A stretch of 64,000 bases of DNA, from the NCBI GenBank assembly GCA_040904565.1, contig JBBDTI010000031.1, forward strand, positions 9,766 to 73,765. The letters are read 5' to 3'. Below, piece after piece: positions 5,582 to 10,711 of this stretch (positions are counted from its first letter, which is position 1; each line of letters begins with the position of its first letter). The translations under genes were made by a program, and so were the position numbers. This stretch comes from Rhodothermales bacterium (lineage in GTDB: Bacteria; Bacteroidota; Rhodothermia; Rhodothermales; VXPQ01). The notes beneath the pieces are model-generated. The model had not been told where the DNA came from. It did not search any database and was given only the letters and a program-made list of their open reading frames with translations.

Positions 5582-7060
5582 CTAGTACGACCGAGCGAAT
5601 ACGACGCGTCCCTTCGAGGGCTTGCCGGTCAGCATGTCGACGCCCTCTTCGTGCGTCGACTCCTCGAGGGGGATTAACCGGATGGTCGCCTTCGTCTCGT
5701 CCTTGATGCGCGCCTCGGTTTCATCGGTACCGTCCCAGTGCGCCTTGACGAAACCGCCCTCCTCGTCGAGCACCTTCTTAAAGTCCTCGTACGAATCCAC
5801 GCTGTGCGTGTGGGCCTCGCGGAAGTCCAGTGCCGCTTCATAGAGTGCACGCTGGATCGTGTCGAGGGTGTCTTTGATGCGCGTCGTCAGACCGTCCTGC
5901 GGTACGATCTCTTTCGACTTCGTATCGCGCCGCGCCAGCTCCACGTTGTTGTTCTTGATGTCTCGCGGGCCGATTGCCAGACGGATGGGCACGCCCTGGA
6001 CTTCATACTCGTTGAACTTCCATCCCGGACGCTGCGCCTCGGAGGCGTCGAGCTTCACGCGGATGTCCTGTTCCTGCAGGTCACGCTCGATAGCTTCAGC
6101 GCGTTCGAGAACGGCGGTACGTTCCTCGTCATTCCGGTAGATCGGAACGATGACGACCTGCGTGGGAGCGAGTCGGGGAGGCAGCACGAGGCCCTGATCG
6201 TCGGAGTGCGTCATGATCAGCGCCCCGATGAGTCGCGTAGAGACGCCCCACGACGTCGCCCACACGTATTCCAGCTCGTTATTGCGATTCTGGAACTGAC
6301 AGTCGAATGCTTTGGCGAAATTCTGGCCGAGGAAGTGACTCGTTCCCGCCTGGAGGGCCTTGCCGTCCTGCATCAAGGCCTCGATGCAGTACGTATCGAC
6401 GGCCCCGGCGAAGCGCTCGCTCGCCGTCTTGATGCCACGGATGACCGGCATCGCCATATACTCTTCCGCGAATGTTGCATACACATCCAGCATTCGGCGC
6501 GTCTCTTCGACGGCCTCTTCTTTCGTTTCGTGGGCCGTATGCCCCTCCTGCCAGAGGAACTCCATCGTGCGGAGAAACATCCTCGTCCGCATCTCCCAGC
6601 GAACGACGTTGGCCCACTGGTTCAGCAGGATGGGCAGGTCGCGCCACGACTGGATCCAGTTCTTGTACGCATCCCAGATGATGGTTTCGCTGGTCGGTCG
6701 TACGATGAGATTCTCCTCCAGCTTCGATTCGGGGTCGGGGATCAGCCCACCGCCGTCCGGGTCCGTCGTCAGCCGTGAATGGGTCACGATGGCGCATTCC
6801 TTCGCAAATCCCTCCACGTGCTCCGCTTCGCGGGCCAGGAAGGACTGTGGAATAAACAGGGGGAAATAGGCGTTCTGGTGGCCGGTCTCCTTGAACATCC
6901 CGTCGAGCGCGTCCCGCATGTTCTCCCAGAGTGCATACCCGTTAGGGCGGATGACCATGCAACCACGGACGGGCGAATAATCCGCCAGCTTGGCGTGCTG
7001 CACGACGTCCAGGTACCACTGAGAGTAATCCTGCTCGCGCTTCGTAATAACGTCGGCCAT
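5582..7060 (-). CDS. proS: proline--tRNA ligase (archaeal/eukaryote-like type)
   Basis: ORF 5582..7111. The start is taken at ATG 7060 ([46 protein letters not shown]...). Class II motifs are present, together with the C-terminal domain ending ...GRVVFARSY that is typical of this ProRS type. Confidence 0.95.
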
Positions 7061-7201
7061 AGTATACAGTCGGTGATGTCTTTCAGATACAAAACGGGAT
7101 GAAAATCGCACGTACCGACGGCCTTCAGGAGGAATGGCCGTTCGGTCCGATGTTTGTACGTCTTATCGGTAAGCGCGGTAACGAGGCCTGTACGACGGCG
7201 C

Positions 7202-7228
7202 AAAAGGGTCCGGAAGGTCCGGCGACCC
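7202..7228 (-). terminator. terminator-like hairpin plus U-run in the proS upstream leader (possible attenuator)
   Basis: The minus strand reads GGGU-CG-CCGGA-CCU-UCCGG-ACCC followed by UUUUG. It lies about 145-170 nt upstream of the proS ATG, and no upstream co-oriented gene exists for it to terminate. Confidence 0.35.
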
Positions 7229-7511
7229 CCGCCGCTCGTCACAGGGTATCTTTGAGCAGGCGCACCATTCGTTCTTTAACAGGGCGAGCAATATATTCTG
7301 TCGGACGCGTTCCGTTCACGTTACGGCGTTGAAGCATCCATTAAGATGCCGCGGAGGCGATTGGGCGCAGCCCGACGGGACGAAACGGCCGAAACGGTAC
7401 GGTTGGCACGAACAGGGCAATCCCGGCCGTCCCGAGGTCGTCCCGCGGCACTTTGCGCGTGCCGAGCAGTACATGATTCATGATGAGGCTGACAATTAAC
7501 CGCCTGGAGCC

Positions 7512-9002
7512 ATGGAACGATCCTATTCAGTGGTAGCACGAGCATCTCGCACGACGACGCTCCCGGCGCTCATCGCGTCCGCCTTTCTTGTTTTGCTGCT
7601 TACCGGGTGTTACACCCAGCTGGCCACGGTGGATCGCGGCCCCGACCACGTCGAGGTCGTTCAGGACGGCGAAGAGACGATTGTAACCGAGCACTACTAC
7701 AGTGATCGGTATCTCTATCAGCGACCGTACAGCTACAGCCGCTACTTCGATCGGTTTCACTACGGCTTCTACGATCCGTGGGATCCGTACTCCTACCGTT
7801 ATCGGGATCCGTTCTACTACGATCCCTGGCATTTCAATCCGCACCGCGGGAGCTTCTTCAGCGTTTCGTTCGGGTTCGGATGGGGATATCCGTCCTATAA
7901 TTATTACGACCCGTTCCATTACCGGCCGTACGGGTATTATCCGAGTTATGCGCACGTGACCTACCCGTACTATGGAGGATGGCGATACGATTATCCCGGT
8001 ACCATCAGGCCGCGGGGAAGTGCGTGGCAGCCGCGTGGCGCGACGATGGGGCGCGATGGGTTGACGACCATAGGCCGGGGATCGAGCGTCGGCGGTGGTC
8101 GGTCGTCCGACGGACGCGGAAGCATGGGGCGTGATGCACTGAGCAATTCGCCGGGTACCGATGCGCGCGACGTGCGGCGCGGCGTAGCTCGGGACGCCGG
8201 CGGCTCGTCCGCCGGAACAGGTACGACCTCTCGTACGAATACGGCAAGAGAGACGTCGCGCGATGCATCGAGCAGCGGTACGCGCGGTACGGTCGGGCGC
8301 AGTTCGGATACGCAGCGCGGCAGCACGGCTCGCGGGACCACGCGCGACACCGGTTCGGAGGCCCGTGGGTCTACGGTGACGCGTACGCCGAGCACGCGAG
8401 GCAGCGTGGGTACGACGCCCAGCCGTTCCGGTTCGTCGGGTACGACGCGCAGTTCGGGTACGACCCGCAGCAGCGGCTCGTCGGGTACGACGCGCAGTTC
8501 CGGTACGACGCGCAGCTCTGGGAGCAGCGATAGTCGAGGCACGTCTCGTACGTCGACGAATCGCTCCAGCAGTTCGAGTGTGGGCTCGTCGGCTCCGGGT
8601 GCCCGGAGTACCGGGGTTCCAAATCGAGACGCCGAGCGGTCACCTTATACCCGGACGCGAAGCGGAACGGTGGACCGCTCCGGTTCGTCGGTAGCGCCGC
8701 GACCGACCTCGCCGAATACCGGCGCGTCGAGCACGGATGGTCGGAGGTACACCCCTTCGACCCGTTCGTCGAGCGGCTCATACGATCGCAGCCGATCCTC
8801 GACCACGCGTAGCACGCCGTCGCGTACGGTCCGCTCGCAGCCGAGTCCGCGGTCGGCACCCTCCTATTCCGCACCCCGCTCCAGCGGGAGCAGCGTTCGA
8901 AGCGCTCCGTCGCGGAGCAGCTCGCGCGGAAGCAGTGTCCGCTCCTCGCCGTCGCGCTCCTCTTCACGCAGCACCGGCAGCTCGAGTCGCAGCCGCGACT
9001 GA
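7512..9002 (+). CDS. lipoprotein with aromatic/Pro/Asp-rich module and ~330-aa Arg/Ser/Thr/Gly-rich disordered tail
   Basis: ATG at 7512 is preceded by GGAG. The lipobox is LLLTGC. A Y/F/W/P/D-rich block (YYDPWHFNPHRG..., YNYYDPFHYRPYGYYPSY) is followed by a long RS/T/G low-complexity region that contains tandem repeats. Confidence 0.7.
   Translation: MERSYSVVARASRTTTLPALIASAFLVLLLTGCYTQLATVDRGPDHVEVVQDGEETIVTEHYYSDRYLYQRPYSYSRYFDRFHYGFYDPWDPYSYRYRDPFYYDPWHFNPHRGSFFSVSFGFGWGYPSYNYYDPFHYRPYGYYPSYAHVTYPYYGGWRYDYPGTIRPRGSAWQPRGATMGRDGLTTIGRGSSVGGGRSSDGRGSMGRDALSNSPGTDARDVRRGVARDAGGSSAGTGTTSRTNTARETSRDASSSGTRGTVGRSSDTQRGSTARGTTRDTGSEARGSTVTRTPSTRGSVGTTPSRSGSSGTTRSSGTTRSSGSSGTTRSSGTTRSSGSSDSRGTSRTSTNRSSSSSVGSSAPGARSTGVPNRDAERSPYTRTRSGTVDRSGSSVAPRPTSPNTGASSTDGRRYTPSTRSSSGSYDRSRSSTTRSTPSRTVRSQPSPRSAPSYSAPRSSGSSVRSAPSRSSSRGSSVRSSPSRSSSRSTGSSSRSRD
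8430..8519 (+). repeat. in-frame tandem repeat, 45 nt x2 (GSSGTTRSSGTTRSS x2)
   Basis: ggttcgtcgggtacgacgcgcagttcgggtacgacccgcagcagc is followed by a near-identical copy ggctcgtcgggtacgacgcgcagttccggtacgacgcgcagctct. Each unit contains a GGTACGACNCGCAG subrepeat. Confidence 0.8.
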
Positions 9003-9163
9003 GCGACCGCGTTCGTCGTCGGAAATTCTAACTACGACAGGTATATGGGAGCCGGGTGTTTTGGCCCGTGCATGAGCGCGGGCCTTTCTTATGCCCGGGT
9101 TACGGGCGACAACGTTTATATAACCCGTTTGAACACAACGACATAGATCCTACGTATAGACCG

Positions 9164-10711
9164 ATGAAAAGCAGACTGACCATTTTTACGGGCGTCCTTT
9201 TGGCGTGGGCATGGGTCGCTTCACCCATGGCCGCGCAGACGGCCGACGACGCACTGCGATTTACGGAACGCTCTCCAGCGACGGGTCCCCGGATGATGGG
9301 GATGGCAGGGGTCGGCATAGCTGGGATAGACGACTACGGTGCGCTGCAGGCGAATCCGGCCGGACTCGGATATTTCGAGGCGTCCGGCTTTGGGGGGGCG
9401 TTGAGTATGCTGTCCGCGTCCGACGAATCACGCTATCAGACGAGCGGGACGACGACGCTGGGTGATGGCGACGTCCGGTCGACGCGTCTGGGAAATCTGG
9501 CCTACGTTTACAAGCTTCCGACGTCGCGCGGGGCCATGGTTCTGGCCACGGCGTACAACCAGGTCAACACGTTCGATCGGAATCTGCTGTTCGGCGGACC
9601 CAACGCAGGAAGCTCGGTCAGCGATTCTTTTCTCCCGTTTCAGGACGAGTTTGAGGTGGTCGGGAGCGACGGTTCGTTTTCGCCCGAATTTTTCCACGTG
9701 ATTCCCGAGCTGGCCTATGAGGGGGGTGCCATCGAGTTCCTCGCTGAAAATGTCGGAACGAACCGGCCGCTCTTCTATCAAGCCGTGGTGCCCGGTACGA
9801 CGATCGATCAGAGCGGCGACGTGCTGGAGGAAGGACGCATGAAGGAGTTGAGCCTCGGCGGTGCCTGGGAGGCGGCGCAGGACGTCATGGTCGGCTTGTC
9901 GGCCAACTTTTCGTTCGGGACGTACCGCTTCAACAGTTTGTATGAAGAGGTCGACACGCGGAATGAGAATTTACCGGATGACTACATCGTCGTGTTGTCG
10001 GATGGAGAGCTGAGGGGATTTCACCGTCTCGCGTACGAGAACGGATTCGAATCGGATCTGACCGGATTTAATATCCGCGGCGGCATTTCTTCGTCCGTCT
10101 TAGAGGGCGTCCGCGTCGGCGTTACCGTCGAAACCCCCACGTACTACGAGATAAGTGAGGACTATTTCCGGGAGCTGGAGACGGTGTTCGACGAGGGCGG
10201 ATCGCTCAGCTCCTCGCAGAATGGCCGGTTCGAATATAGCCTGCAGACGCCCTGGCGTCTGGGCGGTGGTGGATCCTGGGAGCGAGGTAACCTCTTCGTC
10301 GCGGGAGACGTGGAGTACGTCGACTGGTCCCAGATGGAGTTTGGCGATGGAGACGGAACCTTCGGAGACGAGAATCGAGCGATTCGATCCGGTCTGGAAC
10401 CGGTCTGGAATGCACGCGTGGGTGCGGAGTATCGGTTCGGCCGCCTGGCAGCACGGGCCGGATTCGCGTACCAGCCGGATCCGCGAAAAGTCGAGATACA
10501 ACATCAGGGTGAGGCGACGGATCGAAGCAAGCGCTACGTCTCCGCGGGAATCGGTTACCGGTTCAGTCCACAGTTCGCTCTCGACGTCGGCTGGATGCAG
10601 GAGCGTTTCGATGATGAATACGTTCCGTACAGGAACGTGGAGAATCCTCCCGTTGCCGAGGAGAGCCTCTCCCGTAACCGGTTTGCCGTGGGCATGCGCG
10701 TGACGCTCTAG
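9164..10711 (+). CDS. outer-membrane beta-barrel protein, FadL/PorV-like
   Basis: ATG at 9164 gives MKSRLTIFTGVLLAWAWVASPMAAQ (signal). The N-terminal motif ALRF..S..GPRMMGMAGVGIAGIDDYGALQANPAGLGYF is typical of FadL/PorV-type barrels. The protein has an alternating beta-strand pattern and a C-terminal ...RFAVGMRVTL. Confidence 0.7.
   Translation: MKSRLTIFTGVLLAWAWVASPMAAQTADDALRFTERSPATGPRMMGMAGVGIAGIDDYGALQANPAGLGYFEASGFGGALSMLSASDESRYQTSGTTTLGDGDVRSTRLGNLAYVYKLPTSRGAMVLATAYNQVNTFDRNLLFGGPNAGSSVSDSFLPFQDEFEVVGSDGSFSPEFFHVIPELAYEGGAIEFLAENVGTNRPLFYQAVVPGTTIDQSGDVLEEGRMKELSLGGAWEAAQDVMVGLSANFSFGTYRFNSLYEEVDTRNENLPDDYIVVLSDGELRGFHRLAYENGFESDLTGFNIRGGISSSVLEGVRVGVTVETPTYYEISEDYFRELETVFDEGGSLSSSQNGRFEYSLQTPWRLGGGGSWERGNLFVAGDVEYVDWSQMEFGDGDGTFGDENRAIRSGLEPVWNARVGAEYRFGRLAARAGFAYQPDPRKVEIQHQGEATDRSKRYVSAGIGYRFSPQFALDVGWMQERFDDEYVPYRNVENPPVAEESLSRNRFAVGMRVTL

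What the first reader, a model, noticed from the sequence alone, without database searches (positions are those of the whole stretch)
7512..9002. Lipoprotein with an aromatic/Pro/Asp module and a ~330-residue Arg-Ser-Thr-Gly 'RS-like' disordered tail
After a lipobox (LLLTGC), the protein has about 130 aa extremely rich in Y/F/W/P/D (for example YYDPWHFNPHRG and YNYYDPFHYRPYGYYPSYAHVTYPYYGGWRYDY). About 330 aa follow that are made almost only of S, R, T and G, with almost no hydrophobic residues and a strong net positive charge. This tail includes an exact 45-nt tandem duplication (8430-8519). That composition is very unusual for a bacterial envelope protein. It resembles eukaryotic RS domains or polyanion-binding/condensate-forming tails, so it could bind eDNA, LPS or polyphosphate, or act as an entropic spacer. 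It is followed 160 bp downstream by a FadL/PorV-like barrel (9164-10711) on the same strand, which may be a partner. The frame is supported by the start context (GGAG-n5-ATG), the lipobox and the long open frame. However, GC-rich genomes generate long spurious ORFs, so expression should be verified.
Basis: partly seen in the sequence, partly recalled or inferred. Interest (0 to 1): 0.6.

Follow-up and report, generated by a model that had tools for sequence, protein, structure and literature searches.

The report
Disordered lipoprotein paired with FadL-like barrel
This is a real gene, missed in the public gene calls on record for this genome, for an outer-membrane lipoprotein with no predicted folded domain (a tyrosine-rich acidic block, then a long, evenly charged serine/arginine tail); it belongs to a widespread uncharacterised family in Bacteroidota and related phyla that is always encoded next to its own FadL-type barrel.

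Summary
The ORF at 7512-9002 is real. Two details were wrong. The "exact 45-nt duplication" is 39/45 identical in DNA, and all six differences are synonymous, so the 15-aa peptide repeat is exact. GGAG lies 2 nt from the ATG, not 5.

The worry about a spurious GC-rich ORF is refuted. At least 583 cluster representatives share the architecture: lipobox, aromatic/acidic block, basic Ser/Arg/Thr/Gly tail and a basic C-terminus. In 35-47% GC genomes only the sense frame stays open. The gene calls on record for the source MAGs miss the gene and list antisense ORFs instead.

AlphaFold2 with 108 homologues finds no fold in the mature protein. Arg spacing in the tail is non-random (every 4-8 residues, with RR depleted).

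In 50 of 50 informative loci from five FCB phyla, a FadL-fold barrel follows on the same strand. This barrel keeps the NPA hatch motif. It fails the BamG and PorV thresholds.

My best reading is an outer-membrane lipoprotein docked on its dedicated barrel, carrying a polycationic disordered tail that binds anionic envelope polymers. The pairing is shown. Docking, topology and ligand are inferred. No Pfam, NCBIfam, PDB or literature match exists for the lipoprotein. The "RS-domain" likeness is compositional only.

The parts
7512..7610 (+). Signal peptide with lipobox (aa 1-33; L-T-G-C, lipidated Cys33)
   Evidence: The translation shows a positively charged n-region, a hydrophobic core and LLLTGC. 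This is the only segment AF2 predicts with confidence (helix 17-31). The MERS start is conserved in L008.
7608..7625 (+). Conserved mature N-terminus Cys-Tyr-Thr-Gln-Leu-Ala
   Evidence: C33, Y34 and T35 are invariant and Q36 is at least 90% conserved in the 108-sequence alignment A3. Caveat: the sequences in A3 and were chosen with a C-[YST]-T-[QE] filter, and the genome scan used this motif as its search pattern. Of the 164 proteins held, 107 were at least 280 aa and carried the motif. The Bacteroidia/Cytophagia subfamily has C-x-T-G-S-Y-V instead. No acidic residue occurs in the first six positions after Cys.
7611..8006 (+). Aromatic/acidic low-complexity block (aa 34-165). It has an acidic lead-in, YDPF/YDPW repeats and a central alternating stretch SFFSVSFGFGWGY.
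   Evidence: Composition: Y 22%, P 10%, D 8%, F 8%; D+E 15, R+K 10, H 7. It is 78% identical to L008, with pN/pS 0.116/0.831. The profile of this block finds 583 proteins at E<=1e-3 among 1.84 billion representatives. AF2 pLDDT is about 40, so no autonomous fold is predicted. TRF finds a 24-nt period at 7769-7829.
8025..8063 (+). Conserved hinge motif W-x-P-R-G-x-T-M-G-R-x-x-L (aa 172-184)
   Evidence: R175 is invariant in A3. R175 and R181 are nearly invariant in the 16-sequence alignment A1. The consensus 'Y.PRG.T.GR..L' is seen in A1 and A2.
8007..8999 (+). Basic Ser/Arg/Thr/Gly disordered tail (aa 166-496), followed by the stop codon at 9000-9002
   Evidence: SRTG content is 74% and net charge is +38. 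pLDDT is 36-54. It is 59% identical to L008, with all indels in frame and codon-position differences of 118/73/176. dN/dS is about 0.31. Basic residues are regularly spaced: RR pairs number 2 against 8.7 expected, matched by 13 of 5000 shuffles. Every family member with enough sequence has such a tail, 46-378 aa long, with net charge +6 to +72.
8430..8519 (+). Tandem duplication of a 15-aa unit, GSSGTTRSSGTTRSS x2
   Evidence: DNA identity is 39/45 and all 6 differences are synonymous. TRF reports period 45, 2.0 copies, 93%. One copy is missing in L008 (a 14-aa gap), so the duplication is lineage-specific.
8955..8999 (+). C-terminal Ser-rich run ending in a basic cluster (...SSRSTGSSSRSRD)
   Evidence: Across the family, positions -15 to -7 are about 45% Ser and the last six residues carry about 2.5 R/K (about 1.2 expected). 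The final residue is R in 40% and N in 25%. R493 is at least 90% conserved in A3.
9063..9084 (+). GC-rich hairpin followed by TTTCTTAT, lying between the lipoprotein and barrel genes (terminator-like)
   Evidence: It has 9 pairs, 8 of them G-C. The stem is identical in L008 although the flanks have diverged, and the loop differs. The intergenic RNA folds with z = -2.4.
9164..10711 (+). Partner gene: a FadL-family outer-membrane barrel (515 aa) with an N-terminal hatch carrying an invariant NPA motif
   Evidence: Pfam Toluene_X E = 4.9e-11, above the cutoff. AF2 pLDDT 90.7. Foldseek PDB hits: BamG 1.9e-16, FadL 5e-16, TodX 4e-15. N64-P65-A66 are invariant in 57 homologues. The protein is 100% identical to P0165, named 'outer membrane protein transport protein [Rhodothermales bacterium]'. 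A homologous barrel lies downstream in 50 of 50 informative loci.

Best explanation
SHOWN: 7512-9002 encodes a genuine outer-membrane-type lipoprotein of a large, uncharacterised family found across the FCB superphylum (Rhodothermota, Bacteroidota, Ignavibacteria, Calditrichia, Fibrobacterota, Marinimicrobia). The mature protein has no predicted fold. It is a two-block low-complexity chain. After a conserved lipidated N-terminus (Cys-Tyr-Thr-Gln-Leu-Ala) comes a block of about 130 aa that is Tyr/Phe/Trp/Pro/Asp-rich and slightly acidic. A short conserved hinge (PRGxTxGR) follows, then a polycationic Ser/Arg/Thr/Gly tail of about 330 aa. The arginines in the tail are evenly spaced, and the chain ends in a basic cluster. 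Selection acts on composition, charge spacing and the termini rather than on the tail sequence. The gene is genomically coupled to a dedicated FadL-fold barrel immediately downstream.

INFERRED: The lipoprotein and the barrel form a complex in the outer membrane. The conserved lipidated N-terminus, and possibly the alternating SFFSVSFGFGWGY strand of the aromatic block, dock on the barrel, whose own most conserved region is its mature N-terminal hatch. This would resemble the way the BamH N-terminus is wedged into the FadL-fold barrel BamG. No acidic lipoprotein export signal follows the Cys, so the chain most likely stays on the periplasmic face of the outer membrane. There the flexible, evenly charged polycationic tail would bind anionic envelope polymers such as peptidoglycan or acidic lipid head groups. 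It would act as a non-covalent electrostatic tether or brush anchored at the barrel.
For: The gene is real:
- Homologues share the architecture.
- There are 583 profile hits at E<=1e-3.
- 60 genomic loci were recovered from several phyla (taxonomy).
- Third-codon-position substitutions dominate and all indels against L008 are in frame.
- dN/dS is about 0.31 in the tail, and pN/pS in the N block is 0.116/0.831.
- The differences between the two copies of the duplicated 15-aa unit are all synonymous.
- In 35-47% GC genomes only the sense frame is open.

Disorder: AF2 with a 108-sequence MSA gives mean pLDDT 47, and only the signal helix is confident.

Non-random tail: basic-residue gaps of 4-7 are 1.5x enriched, adjacent pairs are 0.6x and gaps of 12 or more are 0.5x. 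The C-terminal basic cluster is conserved.

Coupling to the barrel:
- 50 of 50 loci with at least 900 nt downstream carry a homologous barrel on the same strand within about 1 kb, often 0-60 nt away.
- The flanking genes differ outside Rhodothermales.
- The pairing holds in cultured Pontibacter korlensis and Gaoshiqia.

Barrel fold and conserved hatch.

Precedent for FadL-fold barrels docking the conserved lipidated N-terminus of a lipoprotein: BamG-BamH in PMC12611786 and PMC12578637.

Periplasmic orientation: no acidic residue occurs in the six positions after Cys, whereas Bacteroidota surface lipoproteins have at least two (PMC12578637).
Against: - No direct evidence of expression, complex formation, topology or ligand was obtained.
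- The docking model rests on analogy. A complex prediction could not be run.
- The export-signal rule was established in Bacteroides, Capnocytophaga and Flavobacterium, not in Rhodothermales.
- The barrel keeps the FadL NPA hatch motif. By sequence profile it is nearer to transporting FadL/TbuX proteins than to BamG or PorV. It may therefore be a true small-molecule channel rather than a docking platform.
- A terminator-like hairpin separates the two genes in this genome.
- Tail length varies from 46 to 378 aa, which argues against a fixed-length spacer.
- The invariance of the CYTQ N-terminus is partly built in by how sequences were selected.
- Binding of Arg-rich disordered chains to peptidoglycan is my own inference, not an established property.
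Confidence: 0.4

Rival explanations
1. The barrel is a working FadL-type channel for hydrophobic molecules, and the lipoprotein is its accessory. The aromatic-rich block would capture hydrophobic or aromatic ligands at the hatch or lateral opening, or hand them over. The basic tail would only keep the accessory at anionic membrane surfaces.
For: Pfam Toluene_X scores above its gathering cutoff. The NPA hatch motif is invariant in 57 homologues. The barrel profile hits only FadL, TbuX and the P. aeruginosa FadL homologue among PDB sequences, at 7e-7 to 5e-4, and not BamG or PorV. The hatch is the most conserved part of the barrel.
Against: None of the solved FadL, TodX or TbuX transporters matched here is described with a lipoprotein partner (my own knowledge). 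This does not explain a conserved polycationic tail of 150-380 aa with regular charge spacing. The barrel is about 90-100 aa larger than FadL, and its best structural match is BamG. The neighbourhood contains no catabolic or lipid-metabolism genes.
Confidence: 0.2
2. This is a surface-displayed polycation. The lipoprotein is flipped or threaded to the cell surface with the help of the dedicated barrel, in an RcsF-like, Slam-like or BamG/BamH-like way. The tail then coats the surface and binds LPS phosphates, acidic exopolysaccharide or eDNA.
For: There is a dedicated barrel partner in every locus. The FadL-fold barrels BamG, PorV and PorQ all handle surface-exposed proteins in this superphylum. 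The tail is hydrophilic, unfolded and therefore translocation-competent. An acidic stretch begins at position +9 after Cys.
Against: No acidic residues occur within the first six positions after Cys in either subfamily, so the Bacteroidota lipoprotein export signal is absent (rule in PMC12578637). There is no T9SS C-terminal domain. No mechanism is known for moving a +38 chain through a plugged 14-stranded barrel.
Confidence: 0.2
3. This is a periplasm-spanning reach, analogous to LpoA/LpoB. The outer-membrane-anchored disordered chain passes through the peptidoglycan mesh, and its conserved basic C-terminal motif contacts an inner-membrane or peptidoglycan enzyme.
For: The C-terminal Ser-run plus basic cluster is conserved in an otherwise free-evolving tail. 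mltG (YceG) is adjacent in Rhodothermales. That LpoA and LpoB have long disordered linkers is my own knowledge.
Against: The mltG linkage is confined to Rhodothermales. Tail length varies about eight-fold, and Ignavibacteria carry mini-paralogues with tails of about 90 aa. There is no folded effector domain at the tip.
Confidence: 0.1
4. The pair is simply the Rhodothermales version of bamH-bamG, the accessory subunits of the Bacteroidota-type BAM complex. These genes are adjacent in Salinibacter, Ignavibacterium, Fibrobacter and others.
For: BamG and BamH are neighbouring genes in several FCB species (SRU_0789/0790, IALB_1455/1454, FSU_1156/1157; Supplementary Table 1 of PMC12611786). The best Foldseek hit of the barrel is B. 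thetaiotaomicron BamG. The best NCBIfam hit is BamG.
Against: The barrel scores 48.5 bits against the BamG equivalog cutoff of 250, and orthologous barrels from other phyla score 40-61 bits. The barrel profile does not detect any BamG chain in the PDB at E<=1. The lipoprotein profile finds no BamH chain. BamH is a folded two-domain surface lipoprotein with an acidic export signal, whereas this protein is unfolded and lacks that signal. I could not fetch SRU_0789/0790 to show directly that they are a different locus.
Confidence: 0.06
5. The ORF is not a real gene. It is a long open frame produced by GC-rich, low-complexity DNA, and the true genes are the short minus-strand ORFs listed in the public gene calls.
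For: The gene calls on record for GCA_040875675.1 and GCA_040878475.1 list four small minus-strand ORFs (46, 77, 183 and 56-59 aa) and no plus-strand gene here. Antisense frames of the tail are largely open in GC-rich relatives; one is fully open in L008.
Against: The sense frame is continuous with a conserved signal peptide, lipobox and N block in more than 150 homologues. In low-GC relatives all other frames carry 3-25 stops while the sense frame stays open for 184-297 codons. The duplicated unit differs only by synonymous changes. Substitutions fall mostly at third positions and dN/dS is below 1. The gene was called in other genomes, for example Salinibacter altiplanensis P0014.
Confidence: 0.02

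Closest known systems
BamG-BamH (FadL-fold barrel plus lipoprotein of the Bacteroidota BAM complex; PDB 9n2d, 9hiv, 9hjm)
   Same: Both are a FadL-fold 14-stranded barrel encoded next to a lipoprotein in many FCB genomes. In both, the partners are most conserved at their mature N-termini. In BamGH, the lipidated N-terminus of the lipoprotein is wedged into the barrel. B. thetaiotaomicron BamG is the top structural hit of this barrel.
   Different: This barrel fails the BamG equivalog threshold (48 against 250 bits), and its profile does not hit BamG sequences. BamH is a folded, surface-exposed protein with an acidic export signal. This lipoprotein is unfolded, lacks the signal and carries a polycationic tail.
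FadL/TodX/TbuX hydrophobic-compound channels (Pfam PF03349 Toluene_X)
   Same: The barrel matches PF03349 above its cutoff. It shares the fold, the N-terminal hatch and the invariant NPA motif, and it hits FadL, TbuX and the P. aeruginosa FadL homologue at the sequence level.
   Different: This barrel is obligately paired with a lipoprotein gene. It is about 90-100 residues longer. The N-terminal part of related barrels matches the PorV/PorQ family model. Transport was not tested.
PorV/PorQ (T9SS FadL-fold barrels that bind cargo or anchor PorZ)
   Same: These are FadL-fold barrels of the same superphylum that work as protein-binding platforms. There are weak PorV_fam hits to the N-terminal region.
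   Different: Scores of 28-46 bits fall below the PorV_fam cutoff of 90. The Foldseek hit to PorV (8gl6_F) is only 1.4e-5, against 1e-16 for BamG and FadL. The lipoprotein has no T9SS C-terminal domain.
RcsF and other OM lipoproteins with disordered, positively charged linkers (E. coli); LpoA/LpoB
   Same: These are OM lipoproteins in which a disordered segment does the work by threading through a barrel or reaching across the periplasm. About half of E. coli OM lipoproteins have disordered N-terminal linkers (abstract of bioRxiv 10.1101/2021.01.05.425367, listed). The rest of this comparison is my own knowledge.
   Different: Those proteins end in a folded functional domain and their linkers are tens of residues long. 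Here the whole mature chain of 463 aa is unfolded, and there is no sequence similarity.
Eukaryotic RS domains, FUS-type Tyr/Arg low-complexity regions, and phosvitin ('Vitellogenin II', the automatic UniRef name of some homologues)
   Same: The likeness is in composition: Ser plus Arg richness, and a Tyr-rich block plus an Arg-rich block in one chain.
   Different: There are no alternating RS dipeptide runs; the longest is (RS)2, and Arg is spaced every 4-8 residues. The envelope location makes kinase-driven regulation unlikely (my inference). There is no homology. The UniRef names come from compositional matches or from the neighbouring proS gene.

Membership tests
Bacterial lipoprotein (signal peptidase II substrate) | N-terminal signal peptide ending in a lipobox [LVI][ASTVI][GAS]C | tested here: met
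   The window has L-T-G-C with Cys33 after a charged n-region and a hydrophobic core. G32 is at least 90% conserved and C33 is invariant in 108 sequences.
Bacterial lipoprotein (signal peptidase II substrate) | Actual lipidation and outer-membrane localisation | not testable with these tools
   This needs biochemical work (globomycin sensitivity, palmitate labelling, fractionation).
Bacteroidota surface-exposed lipoprotein (LES-bearing) | [quoted passage not shown] | tested here: not met
   Positions +2 to +7 are Y-T-Q-L-A-T/V. Acidic residues start at +9. The Bacteroidia/Cytophagia subfamily has C-T-T-G-S-Y-V. The rule is taken from PMC12578637.
FadL/OMPP1/TodX family (PF03349), for the partner barrel | Match to the Pfam model above its gathering score | tested here: met
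   42.2 bits against 29.7, E = 4.9e-11.
FadL/OMPP1/TodX family (PF03349), for the partner barrel | FadL-type beta-barrel fold with an N-terminal hatch | tested here: met
   The AF2 model has pLDDT 90.7. Foldseek gives probability 1.00 to BamG, FadL, TodX and TbuX, with TM(target) 0.61-0.68.
FadL/OMPP1/TodX family (PF03349), for the partner barrel | Conserved NPA motif in the hatch | tested here: met
   N64-P65-A66 are invariant in 57 homologues and align to the NPA region of the P. aeruginosa FadL homologue. The motif is also present in the Pontibacter orthologue.
FadL/OMPP1/TodX family (PF03349), for the partner barrel | Transport of hydrophobic substrates | not testable with these tools
   This needs uptake or liposome assays.
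BamG (NCBIfam NF053685 equivalog) | Score at or above the curated equivalog cutoff (250 bits) | tested here: not met
   The window barrel scores 48.5 bits, and orthologous barrels from four other loci score 39.5-61.5 bits.
BamG (NCBIfam NF053685 equivalog) | Detectable sequence relationship to solved BamG chains (9hiv_F, 9hjm_F, 9n2d_B) | tested here: not met
   The profile of 57 barrel homologues against all PDB sequences hits only FadL, TbuX and the P. aeruginosa FadL homologue at E<=1. The similarity to BamG is structural only.
BamG (NCBIfam NF053685 equivalog) | Physical association with BamA | not testable with these tools
   This needs a pull-down or cryo-EM.
BamH | Folded two-domain lipoprotein (CBM-like proximal domain) related to the solved BamH chains | tested here: not met
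   The lipoprotein profile finds no relevant PDB chain even at E<=10. AF2 finds no folded domain. The description of BamH comes from PMC12611786.
PorV/PorQ family (NF033709) | Score at or above the family cutoff (90 bits) | tested here: not met
   The window barrel scores 28 bits, and related barrels score 34-46 bits.
Eukaryote-type RS domain | Runs of consecutive RS/SR dipeptides | tested here: not met
   The longest alternating run is RSRS/SRSR. There are 25 RS and 13 SR dipeptides in 331 aa, and the commonest gap between basic residues in the window tail is 5.
YXWGXW-repeat protein / any Pfam or NCBIfam family (for the lipoprotein) | Match to a curated model | tested here: not met
   The window protein has no Pfam or NCBIfam hit at E<=0.1. 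Six homologues have none above cutoff. The precomputed Pfam column is empty for all but one of the homologues listed.

The most novel reading that the evidence does not exclude
The family is a new class of bacterial envelope protein: a dedicated 'sticker-and-spacer' intrinsically disordered lipoprotein, with a Tyr-rich block plus an evenly charged Arg-rich block. Its own FadL-fold barrel would install or anchor it. It would act through collective material properties, such as a polycation brush, a coacervate with envelope polyanions or cation-pi self-association, rather than through a folded domain. This would extend the emerging theme that FadL-fold barrels in the FCB superphylum (BamG, PorV, PorQ) are protein-handling platforms, adding a third, unrelated client type.
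Probability: 0.15. Interest if true: 0.85.

Novelty: new variant of a known kind. Interest (0 to 1): 0.6.

Why it matters
1. The gene calls on record for the source MAGs leave this gene out and list antisense ORFs instead. That is a concrete example of systematic annotation loss for low-complexity envelope proteins.

2. The family is large (at least 583 50%-identity clusters) and spans five FCB phyla plus Marinimicrobia. It has no Pfam or NCBIfam model, no solved structure and no paper. Automatic names such as 'Vitellogenin II' and 'Prolyl-tRNA synthetase' are wrong.

3. Its invariable pairing with a distinct FadL-fold barrel adds a third barrel-protein partnership in these phyla, alongside BamG-BamH and PorV/PorQ. 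These are phyla whose outer-membrane biology has recently proved very different from the E. coli model.

4. A mature outer-membrane lipoprotein with no predicted folded domain, but with conserved termini and regular charge spacing, would be a tractable system for asking what disordered polyelectrolytes do in the bacterial envelope. Cultured carriers exist (Pontibacter korlensis, Gaoshiqia, Salinibacter, Roseithermus sacchariphilus).

Tried and rejected
- Pfam and NCBIfam scans of the lipoprotein and six homologues gave nothing above cutoff.
- The PDB sequence search with the N-block profile gave nothing relevant.
- phmmer of the barrel against the PDB gave only a weak FapF hit (E = 0.02), treated as chance.
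- AF2 of the full protein gave no fold, so I ran no fold search on that model.
- I looked for repeat-number polymorphism between the two public assemblies of this organism. L068 is identical to the window, and L069 differs only by a masked run of 100 N, so there was no information.
- The Rfam scan of 6900-9300 gave only a sub-threshold lncRNA hit, treated as chance.
- The sigma-70 promoter scan found none, as expected for this group.
- The Bacteroidota O-glycosylation motif D-[ST]-[AILVMT] is absent from the protein.
- The RS-domain test found no alternating runs.
- The k-mer search for a repeated linear motif in tails found 'VGRS', 'TTRS' and 'RSSG' enriched 5-8x. This looks like local repeat expansion rather than a universal motif, since VGRS occurs in only 30 of 147 tails.
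- Antisense-ORF openness is uninformative as evidence in GC-rich members.
- Five literature searches found no description of the family.
- P0020 has no lipobox and no barrel neighbour, so I did not count it as a family member.
- I considered the bamHG hypothesis seriously after seeing Supplementary Table 1 of PMC12611786 and rejected it.


Full report
**1. The observation**

The ORF at 7512..9002 (+) exists and encodes 496 aa. Residues 166-496 are S 28%, R 17%, T 15% and G 14%, with 7% hydrophobic or aromatic residues and net charge +38.

Two details are wrong:
- The 45-nt duplication at 8430-8519 is 39/45 identical, not exact (TRF 93%). All six differences are synonymous, including an AGC/TCT serine switch. 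The 15-aa peptide GSSGTTRSSGTTRSS is therefore repeated exactly, which itself argues for translation in this frame.
- GGAG (7506-7509) lies 2 nt, not 5 nt, before the ATG.

**2. Is the gene real?**

The window is identical to Rhodothermales MAG records (GCA_040875675.1 and GCA_040878475.1). The gene calls on record for those contigs omit this ORF and list four short minus-strand ORFs in its place. The family evidence nevertheless settles the question.

- A whole-protein search found 23 proteins. Nearly all share the layout: lipobox, acidic stretch, aromatic block, 'PRGxTxGR' hinge and basic Ser/Arg tail.
- A profile of the N-terminal block alone, without the tail, found 583 proteins at E<=1e-3 and 73 at E<=1e-10 among 1.84 billion cluster representatives.
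- A genome scan returned 60 loci. They come from Rhodothermales, Salinibacteraceae, Roseithermus, Rhodothermus, Chitinophagales, Ignavibacteria, Marinimicrobia, Calditrichia and Chitinivibrionales (Fibrobacterota).
- Every locus with enough sequence has an aromatic block of typically 110-190 aa (about 30% Y/F/W). Each also has a tail of 46-378 aa with net charge +6 to +72.
- Against the closest relative (L008), the N block is 78% identical and the tail 59%. All 13 indel runs are in frame.
- Nucleotide differences concentrate at third codon positions: 35/25/87 in the N part and 118/73/176 in the tail.
- pN/pS is 0.116/0.831 for the N block and 0.314/0.622 for the tail (dN/dS about 0.31). The barrel gives dN/dS 0.10. 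Synonymous sites are saturated and tail alignments are uncertain, so these are rough values.
- Antisense frames are often open in GC-rich members and so are uninformative. In 35-47% GC genomes, however, the sense frame stays open for 184-297 codons while each of the other five frames has 3-25 stops.
- The duplicated unit is missing in L008, which carries a different internal repeat. The tail therefore evolves by local expansion and contraction.

**3. Anatomy**

AlphaFold2 with a 108-sequence alignment gave mean pLDDT 47. Only the signal-peptide helix is confident. The aromatic block and the tail both sit near pLDDT 40. The whole mature chain is thus predicted to lack an autonomous fold.

Several features are conserved:
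- The first residues after the lipidated Cys are C-Y-T-Q-L-A. This is partly enforced by my selection pattern. A Bacteroidia/Cytophagia subfamily has C-x-T-G-S-Y-V-T-N-x-Y-D-D-I-Y-Y instead.
- A central alternating stretch in the aromatic block (SFFSVSFGFGWGY).
- The hinge, with R175 invariant.
- A Ser/Gly run followed by a basic cluster at the very C-terminus.

The tail is not random low complexity. Across 144 tails, adjacent basic residues are depleted (0.6x), gaps of 4-7 are enriched (about 1.5x) and gaps of 12 or more are depleted (0.5x). In the window, RR occurs twice against 8.7 expected, a level matched by 13 of 5000 shuffles. The result is an evenly charged polycation. It has no alternating RS runs and no Bacteroidota O-glycosylation motif.

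**4. The partner**

The downstream gene (9164-10711) is a FadL-family barrel:
- Pfam Toluene_X scores above its cutoff.
- The AF2 model has pLDDT 90.7.
- Foldseek hits include B. thetaiotaomicron BamG at 1.9e-16, then FadL, TodX, and the P. gingivalis and F. johnsoniae BamG chains. PorV scores only 1.4e-5.
- N64-P65-A66, the FadL hatch motif, is invariant in 57 homologues, and the hatch is the most conserved region.

In 50 of 50 loci with at least 900 nt downstream, a homologous barrel follows on the same strand. It is often 0-60 nt away and never more than about 1 kb. The flanking genes differ otherwise. proS lies divergently upstream only in Rhodothermales and some Bacteroidota, and mltG only in Rhodothermales.

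The triad proS / lipoprotein / barrel is also present in cultured Pontibacter korlensis and Gaoshiqia sp. (hhalign probability 99.9% for the Pontibacter barrel).

In this genome a GC-rich hairpin followed by a T-rich tract (9063-9084) lies between the two genes. Its stem is conserved in L008. Co-transcription here may therefore be partial.

**5. Which known system?**

BamG and BamH are adjacent genes in several FCB species (Supplementary Table 1 of PMC12611786), so I tested whether this pair is bamH-bamG. It is not, on present evidence:
- The barrel scores 48.5 bits against the 250-bit BamG equivalog cutoff, and orthologues from other phyla score 40-61 bits.
- The barrel profile hits only FadL, TbuX and the P. 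aeruginosa FadL homologue among PDB sequences, not BamG or PorV.
- The lipoprotein profile finds no BamH chain.
- BamH is a folded surface lipoprotein with an acidic export signal. This protein is unfolded and has no acidic residue in the six positions after Cys.
- PorV_fam scores are also below the cutoff.

The barrel is therefore a distinct subfamily of the FadL/PorV/BamG superfamily. The lipoprotein has no curated family, no solved relative and no literature. Some Bacteroidota homologues carry the automatic names 'Vitellogenin II', 'Prolyl-tRNA synthetase' or 'YXWGXW repeat-containing protein'. These reflect composition or the neighbouring gene.

**6. Mechanism**

Shown: a conserved two-gene module, consisting of a lipoprotein with no predicted fold and a dedicated FadL-fold barrel.

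Inferred: the two form an outer-membrane complex. The conserved lipidated N-terminus, and perhaps the alternating strand of the aromatic block, would dock on the barrel's conserved N-terminal hatch or lateral opening, as BamH does on BamG. The missing export signal suggests a periplasmic orientation. The evenly charged tail would bind anionic envelope polymers as a tether or brush.

I give this specific mechanism about 0.4. The descriptive core, a real gene and a functional pair, I put above 0.9.

The main rivals are:
- an accessory to a genuine FadL-type channel (0.2; the NPA motif and FadL-like sequence favour it);
- a surface-displayed polycation that binds LPS, EPS or eDNA (0.2);
- an Lpo-like reach across the periplasm through the conserved C-terminus (0.1);
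- bamHG (0.06);
- a spurious ORF (0.02).

**7. Verdict**

The RS-domain analogy is compositional only. The novelty lies in a widespread family that is uncharacterised and, in this genome's gene calls, missed, together with its strict pairing with a new FadL-fold barrel subfamily. Function remains open, and cultured carriers make it testable.

Noticed in passing
window 7991-8542 (-), plus three smaller minus-strand ORFs between about 7341 and 8815: The gene calls on record for the source MAGs (GCA_040875675.1 and GCA_040878475.1) list antisense ORFs of 46, 77, 183 and 56-59 aa here and omit the 496-aa plus-strand lipoprotein gene. The 183-aa ORF is the reverse reading of the Ser/Arg tail. These are almost certainly annotation artefacts.
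   Followed up: yes
window 9063-9084 (+): A 9-bp GC-rich hairpin followed by TTTCTTAT lies between the lipoprotein and barrel genes. Its stem is identical in L008 although the flanks have diverged, and the loop differs. It could be a terminator, an attenuator or an mRNA-stability element that sets the lipoprotein-to-barrel ratio.
   Followed up: partly
L054 6175-6663; L060 6207-6701: Ignavibacteria loci carry a second, miniature paralogue (162-164 aa) between the long lipoprotein and the barrel. It has the lipobox G-C-Y-T-(V/I)-I-W, a short aromatic block (YYGDTYYGDYYYFYDTPWWWDY), and a Ser/Gly/Asn tail of about 90 aa ending in RSSGGRR/K. It shows the same design at a quarter of the size.
   Followed up: partly
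L060 4020-4793; L062 3995-4759; L049 3986-4756; L046 3968-4732; L054 4004-4807: A conserved protein of about 255 aa lies immediately upstream of the lipoprotein in Ignavibacteria and some Bacteroidota MAGs. It has a signal peptide, and the L060 copy ends in an OMP-like C-terminal ...SIF. Two of three copies scanned gave a sub-threshold Pfam YjbH hit (20-21 bits against a cutoff of 24). It may be a third component in those lineages.
   Followed up: partly
L007 5339-5722: A 127-aa lipoprotein with S-C-Y-T-K-L-A and a basic Pro/Lys-rich tail lies just upstream of the family member P0008. It may be another short paralogue.
   Followed up: no
P0016 (672 aa) and P0020 (430 aa; locus L005): An aromatic block plus a Ser/Arg tail also occurs fused to other N-terminal parts. 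P0016 has a DUF4384 region. P0020 has an ordinary signal peptide, no lipobox and no barrel neighbour. This is either module shuffling or compositional convergence.
   Followed up: no
P0347, P0354, P0356, P0398 (UniRef 'Vitellogenin II'); P0369 ('Prolyl-tRNA synthetase'); P0359, P0394 ('YXWGXW repeat-containing protein'): The automatic names of the Bacteroidota homologues are misleading. They derive from the Ser-rich composition, from the neighbouring proS gene, or from a Pfam repeat family that these proteins do not actually match.
   Followed up: partly
window 5582-7111 (-): The mechanical proS ORF starts at GTG 7111, but homologues align only from residue 17-18 (MADVITK...). The true start is probably the ATG near 7060, which leaves a divergent intergenic region of about 450 nt before the lipoprotein gene.
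   Followed up: no
window 7769-7829 (+): A degenerate 24-nt (8-aa) tandem repeat, 2.5 copies at 66% match, lies inside the aromatic block. It encodes the YDPW / DPFYYDPW units.
   Followed up: no
window 7118-7264 (-): The only Rfam hit in 6900-9300 is the vertebrate lncRNA model Six3os1_5, at 21 bits against a gathering score of 50. I treat it as chance.
   Followed up: yes
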